Program-made: the position numbers and the translations under genes
Origin: Phoronis australis
Lineage: Eukaryota > Animalia > Phoronida
DNA: 64,000 bases
Direction: 5' to 3'
NCBI GenBank assembly: GCA_002633005.1
Contig: NMRA01000041.1
Coordinates: forward strand, 100,819-164,818
Part shown: positions 37,901 to 43,562 of the stretch, piece by piece
Position numbering within the stretch: the stretch's first letter is position 1
Layout of the letters: each line of letters opens with the position of its first letter
The notes under the pieces: generated by a model
Databases searched by the model: none
Told to the model about the DNA's origin: nothing
The model's input: only the letters and a program-made list of their open reading frames with translations

Positions 37901-40900
37901 TTTTGTCAACTTTTTTGAAAACTAAGGTAAAACCTCACTAATTTAGGACAAGTGTTTTCCAAGCAACACAACAAGGCTTTACTTGTCTTGGGTTTTATAC
38001 CACAGCTGCCATTGGACAATGTTTTGAAAGACTGTGGCCATTCGCAGTAATGTTAGAAGCTTTTTTAAAAAAGAAATACAACCAATTTCGGCAAATATTT
38101 TTGTCTAAATTGGGTGACAGGTTACCGTACTGTATTTCTCAACTCACCAATTGTGCTGGGTACGAACAACTTCAACTTGTACTGTTTAGACAACTCCAGA
38201 ACGTTGTGAAGACCTTCAATGTTCACACGCATGGCTAGCGGAATGTTGGCCTCACCTATGGCACTCAAGAGGGCGCTGAAGTGCACAATCCAGTCCACAC
38301 TCTGGTTGACGATGATTTCCTGGAGATTCTTAAAATCCAGAATGTCCGCATAGAAATACGGCCCTACATCAGAAAGGAAACATCAATTTAATTACTAAAA
38401 TTCATCCGTTTAGTTAACAATGTTGAATTTTTAATAAAAGTGTTTTGGAGATCAAAAATATTACCATGCTCATGCAACGGCAACTGAAGTCACAGGCACT
38501 GCATACATGCACCATTTTTGAATCTACAATTTTAGTGTTGGCTATGCAGCCCCAATAAACTCTGGATTTACGGGGGGGGAAGTCACCCCCAAAAAATAAA
38601 ACGGCAAAAGCACGAGGAAAAATTTGAATTAACCCTGGTAACTAATATTATACGGCCCAAACAAGATTTGGCAATGAGTGATTTAGTTTGTGTGTGCCTG
38701 TGGGGGGCAGACCCGATTTCAAGTGTCCAATTCAGACAACAGACACAAACGTAGAGGTAACTATGGCCTGGTCGATATGCACGTGATATCCCAGGTGACC
38801 GGCAGTGGTGCTGCACACTACCACTCTGTTTCCGTCATCTGCTCTACTGCAACTCCGACAAAAAGATTTTATTACACCAACATTCGGCCTCAACAATTGA
38901 GTAATCGACAGCCCTGCATTGTTTACCATTTTTTGACTTATGCCTTTAAGTACTCAGACATGTGATAAGAAGAAACACCTACCGTGATTCAAAACCTCAC
39001 GAGGTGCTTTGATTATGTCAGACATGATGACATTATCTCTTCCATATTTCTTTCTGGAAAAATAAAAGACAGTAATTAAATATACAATATTTATCATAAT
39101 CTATTTTGCCCGGGGTACGCCACGAGCTATGTTGCATAGTAAAACAAGAGGAGGATTGCGAATAATGTCATTTATTATGACGTAAATAGATAAAACTAAA
39201 TAAGACTCTGCAAGATGGGCATGGACAAAACGCCCACCGGCGTGTACAATGAATACCCCTGAAAGAGGGAACAAAACAAAAGAACTGCATGAAGGGCTTA
39301 AAGGAAAAGTACAGAACATGAACACAAAACTTGAAAACACCTAACAGGAAATGTATATGAGAAAAGAGAAAAGTGGAACCGATACCCGGGATGGGGGATG
39401 AGGAAAAAAATGCAGAAAATGAACGTAGGTCTTGTAGACGACGAGGAAGGTGGCTGAATGAAAGAGATCACGTTGAACTGAACAAAGGAAATATGGGCGA
39501 CCAATCAGGTGTCGCATAGAGAAATGTATGAATACAAAAGTAGGCCCTTGAGGCTATAAATAGAGATGAGTAATGCAAAATAAACCCTAAGGGTTGATAT
39601 CAAAATAAAGAGACAAATGTCAAAATAATGACGATAAATGCATTTAAGAAGCAGTCCATATAAAAACCAGTAGATTTTCAAAAATCAGTCTATACGTCAA
39701 AATTTAAAACAACTTCATTTTTTGTACATGGGTAGGTATCCTAACAAAAACCCAAATGCCAAATTTTGCGCACTCAATGACCCCTAATTTCGCCGCTGGA
39801 GCATGATAACACAAATTGGCACAATTGGGCATATTAGCNGGTGGACGCACAAAAACAGACTCGAAAACACTAAACATGGCCACTAGGTGGCGCAAACTAT
39901 GTCGAATCCATCTGAAAACGGCAGGATAGCGTCATCTCACTAATAGGTGCCTATATACCACATTTCATGAAAATCCGTTCAGGACTTTTGAAGATACAAA
40001 GGTAAGCGTAAAAAACTAAAATTGCCACTAGGGGGCACACCGGTACTGGAATGTGTCCGAAAGTTCGCACATGCCATCCCATTCATGAATGGAACATATG
40101 TGCCAAATTTCATGAACGTATGTCAAAGGGTTTTGGAGATAGAGCAGCGGACGCCGGACGCCAGACGCCGGACACAGGACGCCGCCTGGACGGACGGACA
40201 GAGATGACGGCATAATGCGTCCACATATAAATATGTGGGCGCATAAATATAAATATGTGGGCGCATAAAAATAAAACAGCAAAAGCATGAGGAAAATTGG
40301 TAATTAATATTACACGGCCCAAACAAGATTTGGCAATGTTTGAAGATTTAGTTTGTGTGTGCCTGTGGGGGCAGACCCGATTTCAAGTGTCCAATTCAGA
40401 CAACAGACACAAACGTAGAGGCAACTATGGCTAAATAATGCCATTCCTGGTCGATGTGCGCGTGATATCCCAGGTGACCGGCAGTGGTGCTGCCCACTAC
40501 CACTCTGTTTCCGTCATCTGCTCTACTGCAACTCCGACAAAAAGATTTTATTACACCAATATTCGGCCTCAACAATTGAGTAATCGACAGCCCTGCATTG
40601 TTTACCATTTTTTGACTTCTGCCTTCAAGTACTCAGACATGTGATAAGAAGAAACACCTACCGTGATTCAAAACCTCACGAGGTGCTTTGATTATGTCAG
40701 ACATGATGACATTATCTCTTCCATATTTCTTGCTGGAAAAATAAAAGACAGTAATATACAATATTTATCGTAATCTATTTTGCCCGGGGTATGCCATGAG
40801 CTATGTTGCAGAGTAAAACAAGAGGAGGATTGCGAATAATGTCATTTATTATTACGTAAATAGATAAAACCAAATAAGACTCTGCAAGATGGGCATGGAC

Positions 40901-43562: not shown

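What the first reader, a model, noticed from the sequence alone, without database searches (positions are those of the whole stretch)
38593..41061. TDH exon 3 is duplicated: two frame-incompatible copies encoding the same peptide (nascent mutually exclusive exons or haplotype artefact)
Seen: the 71-nt exon occurs at 40662-40732 and 38983-39053, 1679 bp apart, inside ~800-bp duplicated units. Both copies keep TTCCAG and GTAGGT splice sites. They differ by one synonymous base (CGC vs CGA, Arg), while the flanking intron copies carry many SNPs and indels up to ~15 nt. Because 71 is not a multiple of 3, including both copies gives a TAA within 14 codons of copy B, and skipping both also gives a stop early in exon 4. 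Exactly one copy must therefore be used. Copy B has 5 extra nt that create a TTTAAT branch-point-like motif absent from copy A. Inference: a young mutually exclusive exon pair or a built-in NMD dosage switch. Alternatively, two haplotypes may have been assembled in tandem (an N lies at 39839).
Basis: partly seen in the sequence, partly recalled or inferred. Interest (0 to 1): 0.75.

Follow-up and report, generated by a model that had tools for sequence, protein, structure and literature searches.

The report
Two alleles assembled as doubled exon
One exon of a threonine-breakdown enzyme gene appears twice in this draft animal sequence, but sequencing depth fits one copy per chromosome and an assembly gap sits between the two, so they are likely the two alleles laid end to end by the assembler rather than a splicing switch.

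Summary
An 800-bp unit with the 71-nt TDH exon 3 stands twice (91.8% identical). One copy gives a 359-aa TDH; both, or neither, give early stops.

The main interpretation does not hold. DNA contigs of one heterozygous sample that carries both versions (probably the assembly's source, so not independent) show:
- Flank alleles at depth about 16-23 each, differing by 5-7%, more than copy A differs from B (3.9%).
- The B-specific contig at 18.9, i.e. haploid.
- One contig per run over exon 3, with no third version seen.
- Observed/expected depth 0.92-1.12 for two alleles, 0.49-0.59 for a homozygous tandem pair, 0.61-0.82 for a one-sided tandem.

The N lies between the copies, inside repeats, and both unit borders are repeat indel points. 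The exon is no better conserved than its introns (P=0.21). This matches heterotype false duplication (PMC9516828).

No long read or read pair across the N could be tested, and RNA depth (about 2) was uninformative, so a private heterozygous duplication remains possible (about 11%). The scan has noted similar cases in other genomes. Verdict: likely an artefact; low interest.

The parts
43427..43562 (-). TDH coding exon 1 (ATG; 136 nt)
   Evidence: splice sites and open frame
42672..42714 (-). TDH exon 2 (43 nt)
40267..41061 (.). Unit A: likely one allele of the exon-3 region
   Evidence: X2 contig with 8 substitutions + 15 gap letters against B, equal to the A-B difference count
40662..40732 (-). 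Exon 3, version A (71 nt)
39840..40262 (+). 3' part of a high-copy dispersed repeat (S) with short tandem units and a terminal hairpin; it ends exactly at the left border of unit A, in an A-run
   Evidence: RNA depth >900 and loose ends at 39840 and 40247; similar ends at 4874-4961 and 7848-7891
39839..39839 (.). Single N, inferred contig join of unknown size
   Evidence: repeat copies elsewhere continue with other letters on both sides of it
39652..39838 (.). Piece of a dispersed repeat cut off at the N
   Evidence: X5 contig of 362 nt matches 39644-39838 with its letters 2-196 and runs on unlike the window
39089..39651 (.). Dispersed repeat R; unit B carries 563 bp, unit A only the first 299 bp (40763-41061); this indel point is the right border of the units
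38592..39387 (.). Unit B: likely the other allele of the exon-3 region
   Evidence: X1 contig 38544-38732 identical to the window at depth 18.9
38983..39053 (-). Exon 3, version B (71 nt)
38148..38363 (-). TDH exon 4 (216 nt), diploid-depth control
   Evidence: X1 contig 38078-38349 depth 34.9; mouse-type mitochondrial TDH chain 4yrb E=3e-25
37054..37160 (-). TDH exon 5
36366..36456 (-). TDH exon 6
35490..35756 (-). TDH exon 7
   Evidence: homologues named L-threonine 3-dehydrogenase
34790..34939 (-). TDH exon 8 with stop codon

Best explanation
Units A and B are likely the two alleles of a single exon-3 region in a highly heterozygous animal, placed one after the other in the assembly across a one-base gap. 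Shown: both versions occur in one diploid sample, copy-specific sequence has haploid depth, and the two unit borders coincide with repeat indel points. Inferred: allele B carries extra repeat sequence on the intron-2 side and allele A carries an S repeat on the intron-3 side; each contig ran through the shared 800 bp and stopped inside its own repeat, and the scaffolder joined the two ends with an N. Each real chromosome would then have an ordinary 8-coding-exon TDH gene with one constitutive exon 3 and a synonymous SNP.
For: (1) Depth, run X1: flank allele pairs 16.8/16.2 and 19.2/22.9, exon-4 contig 34.9, B-specific contig 18.9, exon-3 contig 32.3. Modelled per 31-mer on 4 contigs from 3 runs, observed/expected has geometric mean 1.12 or 0.92 for alleles, 0.59 or 0.49 for a homozygous tandem, 0.82/0.68 and 0.75/0.61 for the two one-sided tandems, under two estimates of haploid depth. 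(2) In the four bins 38850-39041 each of the 3 DNA runs has one contig; X2's has 8 substitutions + 15 gap letters, equal to the A-B differences; the listed differences of X1's and X3's (38881, 38940, 38947) are A letters; no third version was seen although flank alleles separate into two contigs. (3) Flank alleles differ by 11 substitutions in 160 nt and 13 in 267 nt, against 30 in 776 for A vs B. (4) N between the copies, at which repeat copies elsewhere continue differently on both sides. (5) Exon not more conserved than introns, P=0.21. (6) 96 of 120 homologues hit the exon-3 peptide, none twice. (7) Half depth and a gap between the pair are the stated hallmarks of heterotype false duplication (PMC9516828, passages).
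Against: Depth is a contig mean over collapsed bubbles and noisy (allele pair 4.9 vs 12.7 in X3). With the lower haploid estimate, two of four contigs run 21-25% above the allele model and the one-sided tandem with A on the homologue (0.82) is nearly as close as the allele model (1.12). X1-X3 are one sample, probably the source. The second N in the window (54849) has no such duplication. PMC9516828 itself reports a true allele-specific tandem duplication at haploid depth, though within one contig.
Confidence: 0.85

Rival explanations
1. A real but private, heterozygous tandem duplication: unequal crossing-over between repeats on either side of exon 3 put two allelic versions on one chromosome, while the homologue has one copy. 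Transcripts with both exons would be frameshifted and likely degraded by NMD, making it a weak or null allele rather than an evolved switch.
For: The same geometry (repeat at the junction, allele-level divergence) would result. Depth ratios 0.61-0.82 are not firmly excluded given the noise. True allele-specific tandem duplications with haploid depth exist (PMC9516828).
Against: It needs the homologue's copy to be identical to A or B over about 400-500 bp while neighbouring flanks differ by 5-7%. The junction falls on an assembly N. The two spacer halves show no similarity to each other in the window. All four contigs lie at or below this model's expectation.
Confidence: 0.11
2. A fixed or common young pair of mutually exclusive exons, kept exclusive by NMD of double-inclusion transcripts, acting as a dosage switch.
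For: Both copies have intact splice sites and a length not divisible by 3; NMD is a described route to exclusivity for such exons (PMC6071210, passages); earlier unreviewed notes report many mutually exclusive exon pairs in this genome.
Against: A homozygous tandem predicts about twice the depth seen in all 4 contigs (0.53-0.62). Identical peptides give no isoform diversity. The 1608-nt spacer excludes steric hindrance and no inverted complementarity beyond one 11-mer (E=0.19) links the introns. No homologue shows the peptide twice.
Confidence: 0.03
3. A real duplication in which one copy is a silent pseudo-exon (for example A, with the weaker branch-point match).
For: B has TTAAT at -26, A lacks a full YTNAY between -45 and -15.
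Against: Same depth problem as above; A keeps a TTAC core, and exon 7 of the same gene also lacks a full YTNAY in that range.
Confidence: 0.01

Closest known systems
Heterotype false duplication / false exon gain (Ko et al. 2022, PMC9516828)
   Same: Adjacent copies on one scaffold, separated by an assembly gap, haploid depth on copy-specific sequence, allele-level divergence in a highly heterozygous region.
   Different: Their third criterion, discordant read pairs, could not be tested; depth here comes from contig means, not mapped reads.
Tandem mutually exclusive exons kept apart by NMD (FGFR2 IIIb/IIIc as cited in PMC6071210)
   Same: Two same-length homologous exons, not a multiple of 3, double inclusion gives a premature stop.
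   Different: Here the copies encode the same peptide, whole introns are copied at allele-level identity, no cis arrangement is shown and no alternative junctions were seen.
Mitochondrial L-threonine 3-dehydrogenase, SDR-type (PDB 4yrb, 4yr9; Pfam PF01370)
   Same: Exon 4 peptide matches 4yrb at E=3e-25; the spliced protein is 67-76% identical to the ten best of 120 homologues with 0-8 gap columns.
   Different: Nothing unusual in the protein; exon-intron structure of homologues was not compared.

Membership tests
Heterotype false duplication (PMC9516828) | Haploid (half) depth on the duplicated copies | tested here: met
   B-specific contig 18.9 vs diploid exon-4 contig 34.9 in X1; four contigs fit the allele model at 0.92-1.12; contig means, one sample
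Heterotype false duplication (PMC9516828) | Assembly gap between the pair on one scaffold | tested here: met
   N at 39839; repeat copies continue otherwise on both sides
Heterotype false duplication (PMC9516828) | Discordant read pairs or no long read spanning both copies | not testable with these tools
   Only assembled contigs of the DNA runs were offered; no long-read run listed among 8
Heterotype false duplication (PMC9516828) | Both copies carry real single-copy (heterozygous) k-mers, not errors | tested here: met
   A-type and B-type contigs both present in the sample; B-specific path at haploid depth. A-specific depth was not measured on its own.
Heterotype false duplication (PMC9516828) | High local heterozygosity | tested here: met
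   Flank alleles differ by 11/160 and 13/267 substitutions plus indels
Tandem mutually exclusive exons | Both copies in cis on one chromosome | tested here: inconclusive
   Homozygous cis is contradicted by depth (0.49-0.59); one-sided cis is disfavoured but not excluded
Tandem mutually exclusive exons | Same length, phase and intact splice sites | tested here: met
   equally expected for alleles
Tandem mutually exclusive exons | Each copy spliced singly in RNA | tested here: inconclusive
   Exon-3 RNA depth about 2 in X6, no splice joint listed; joints swamped by repeats
Tandem mutually exclusive exons | Mechanism of exclusivity (steric, competing RNA pairing, mixed spliceosomes, NMD) | tested here: inconclusive
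   Steric excluded (1608 nt), no pairing found by blastn-short, all GT-AG; NMD possible by frame but untested
Tandem mutually exclusive exons | Exons conserved above flanking introns / different peptides | tested here: not met
   P=0.21 for exon vs intron divergence; identical peptide
Mitochondrial L-threonine 3-dehydrogenase | Full-length similarity to named TDH proteins and solved TDH structures | tested here: met

The most novel reading that the evidence does not exclude
One chromosome of this animal really carries two allelic versions of TDH exon 3 in tandem, made by unequal crossing-over between flanking repeats: a snapshot of the very first step in the birth of a mutually exclusive exon pair, with NMD as the only guard, in a genome where earlier notes report many older such pairs.
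Probability: 0.11. Interest if true: 0.4.

Novelty: not a real feature. Interest (0 to 1): 0.06.

Why it matters
As biology it most likely does not matter: it is an ordinary TDH gene with two alleles. As a caution it does: a near-identical exon pair with an N between the copies in this assembly should be depth-checked before being called mutually exclusive, and gene predictors could break TDH here by including both copies. If the one-sided tandem were real it would offer a testable example of a newborn, frame-incompatible exon pair.

Tried and rejected
No whole genome is held, so no genome-wide search for other copies or other N-flanked duplications. No RNA holder listed by the index; three raw RNA runs came by species label. 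Laying RNA on 34000-45000 was dominated by the spacer repeats; TDH exons had bin depths of about 0-4 and no splice joint was among the 15 of 51 joints shown. X6 on 37650-39085 gave exon-3 depth about 2 and no splice joint: no evidence either way. In the first depth estimate I left out X1 records 2 and 3 (25.2, 31.8) because they overlap repeat-rich bins, and used only record 18 for X3; one search put them in, which moved all models down and favoured alleles further. The make-up of X1 record 8 (fourth difference taken as 39053, A-type at the 5-nt indel) is inferred from counts and its end point. An extra contig with deletions at 38545-38549 could not be assigned (other allele or repeat paralogue). 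The second N (54849) has only a 52-nt, 81% echo across it, so N alone does not imply duplication. Competing RNA pairing: nothing beyond one 11-mer. Paper search for 'threonine dehydrogenase' + 'mutually exclusive exon': 0 papers; searches for TDH gene structure gave no usable paper (listings only). Earlier findings near this place, in look-alike genomes, or on haplotype artefacts in this genome: none. The organism was not identified; best hits are 60-75% identical, from several animal phyla.

Full report
What is in the sequence. Self-comparison of the window finds one near-identical direct duplication, 38592-39387 (unit B) and 40267-41061 (unit A), 91.8% over 814 columns, and single Ns at 39839 and 54849. 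Similarity stops abruptly at both borders (about 45% of columns in forced global alignments of the next 300 bp). Each unit holds a 71-nt exon on the minus strand with TTTTCCAG and GTAGGT sites. An eight-exon model from 43562 to 34790 gives the same 359-aa protein with either copy; with both it stops at TAA in B (codon 97) and with neither in exon 4 (codon 71). The gene is a mitochondrial-type L-threonine 3-dehydrogenase: exon 7 finds 266 proteins at E<=1e-20, of which 120 were listed, many named TDH; exon 4 matches PDB 4yrb at 3e-25 and PF01370; the spliced protein is 67-76% identical to the ten best of the 120.

Divergence looks allelic. A and B differ by 30 substitutions in 776 columns (3.9%) plus indels; the exon has 1 in 71, which is not below the intron rate of 29 in 705 (binomial P=0.21). 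Of 120 homologues, 96 hit the exon-3 peptide and none hits twice; this is weak evidence, since a mutually exclusive pair would also put one copy in each protein.

The spacer is made of repeats and is broken at the N. Laying three raw RNA runs and one contig set on 34000-45000 showed bin depths in the hundreds to thousands over 39138-40238, from reads mostly 90-99% alike that run on into unrelated sequence. 39089-39651 is a dispersed repeat (R), of which unit A has only the first 299 bp; the point where A leaves R is the right border of the duplication. 39840-40262 is the 3' part of another repeat (S), whose hairpin end recurs at 4874-4961 and 7848-7891 and abuts the A-run that forms the left border of unit A. 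At the N, 1193-1705 reads per run carry other letters before 39840 than the window does, and a 362-nt contig matching 39644-39838 runs on for 166 nt unlike the window. These are other copies of the repeats, so they show what the families normally continue with; from this I infer that the N is a contig join with sequence missing, not an ambiguous base.

Copy number. Eight runs were listed, four of them DNA contig sets from one sample. Three of these and one RNA run were laid on 37650-39085, which holds exon 4, intron 3 and the non-R part of unit B. The sample has contigs identical to the window, so it is probably the assembly's source and is not an independent individual. It is strongly heterozygous: in X1 the flank splits into allele pairs at depth 16.8/16.2 and 19.2/22.9, the second allele differing by 11 substitutions and 7 gap letters in 160 nt; X3 has an alternative flank with 13 substitutions in 267 nt. 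The exon-4 contig, where the alleles collapse, has depth 34.9. The contig across the left border of B (38544-38732, identical to the window) has 18.9. Over 38850-39041 each run has exactly one contig (32.3, 6.97, 6.29). X2's carries 8 substitutions and 15 gap letters, the exact count of A-B differences there; X1's and X3's are A/B mosaics as far as their differences were listed. No third version appeared, although only 40 of 97 difference rows and 24 of 531 pieces were shown.

I modelled expected contig depth from shared and copy-specific 31-mers. Observed over expected, as geometric mean of four contigs under a low and a high estimate of haploid depth: alleles 1.12 and 0.92; homozygous tandem 0.59 and 0.49; tandem plus A on the homologue 0.82 and 0.68; tandem plus B 0.75 and 0.61. 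A fixed tandem pair is thus contradicted in every contig (0.34-0.63). A one-sided tandem is disfavoured but not excluded by depth alone, because contig means are noisy (one X3 allele pair reads 4.9 and 12.7). It further needs the homologue to be identical to A or B where neighbouring DNA differs by 5-7%, and its junction to fall on an assembly gap.

RNA. TDH is weakly covered in the 18-19% of each run that was read; exon-3 depth was about 2 in X6 and no splice joint reached the listing threshold. This says nothing about exon use.

Mechanism. Most likely one chromosome reads exon 4 - unit B - long R and further repeat - intron 2, and the other reads exon 4 - S repeat - unit A - short R - intron 2. 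The left contig followed the first and ended in its repeat, the right contig followed the second and ended in S, and scaffolding put them in series. The trans arrangement itself is inferred: I saw no contig joining the flank to A or B to the right flank. The 5-nt difference near the branch point is then an intronic polymorphism; A keeps a TTAC core at -22.

Comparison with what is known. Ko et al. 2022 (PMC9516828; I read 12 passages, no supplements) list half depth, a gap between the pair, discordant pairs and single-copy k-mers as marks of heterotype false duplication, and show false exon gains; three marks are met here and the read-pair test could not be run. They also report a true allele-specific tandem at haploid depth, in one contig, which keeps the main rival alive. 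One search found no paper holding both 'threonine dehydrogenase' and 'mutually exclusive exon'. Earlier unreviewed notes of this scan describe diverged exon pairs with different peptides in this genome and similar probable artefacts in other genomes; I did not test them and they did not change my reading, which was recorded before the look-up.

Verdict. Observation confirmed; most likely an assembly artefact from two alleles (0.85), possibly a private heterozygous duplication (0.11), unlikely a functional exon pair (0.04 in all). Interest 0.06.

Noticed in passing
window:39840-40262: High-copy repeat with short tandem units (40148-40184, 40225-40275) and a 3' hairpin before an A-run; abundant in RNA, almost all on one strand (bin depth 934-1334 vs 8-24). 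The anatomy recalls DINE-1/HINE-type non-autonomous elements (label recalled, not tested).
   Followed up: partly
window:39089-39651: Dispersed repeat R: reads from other copies join 39651 back to the R start through a 9-nt linker in all three raw RNA runs, so the family occurs head-to-tail or permuted elsewhere.
   Followed up: no
window:54849: Second single N, directly after a long C run, with a 52-nt 81% echo across it; no large duplication.
   Followed up: partly
window:60525-61994: Diverged 12-bp-period palindromic tandem array (about 49 units at 60922-61480) with related pieces at 53536-53800 and inverted parts.
   Followed up: no
window:48703-48845: Two 69-bp head-to-tail copies, 95% alike.
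   Followed up: no
window:30400-30597: Open frame on the + strand ending in a stop, reading like the last exon of a PP2C-type phosphatase (motif recalled, no family search), convergent with TDH.
   Followed up: no
window:38450-38850: Intron 3 and the left part of the unit are themselves old repeat-derived sequence (summed contig depth up to about 3400 in X1).
   Followed up: no
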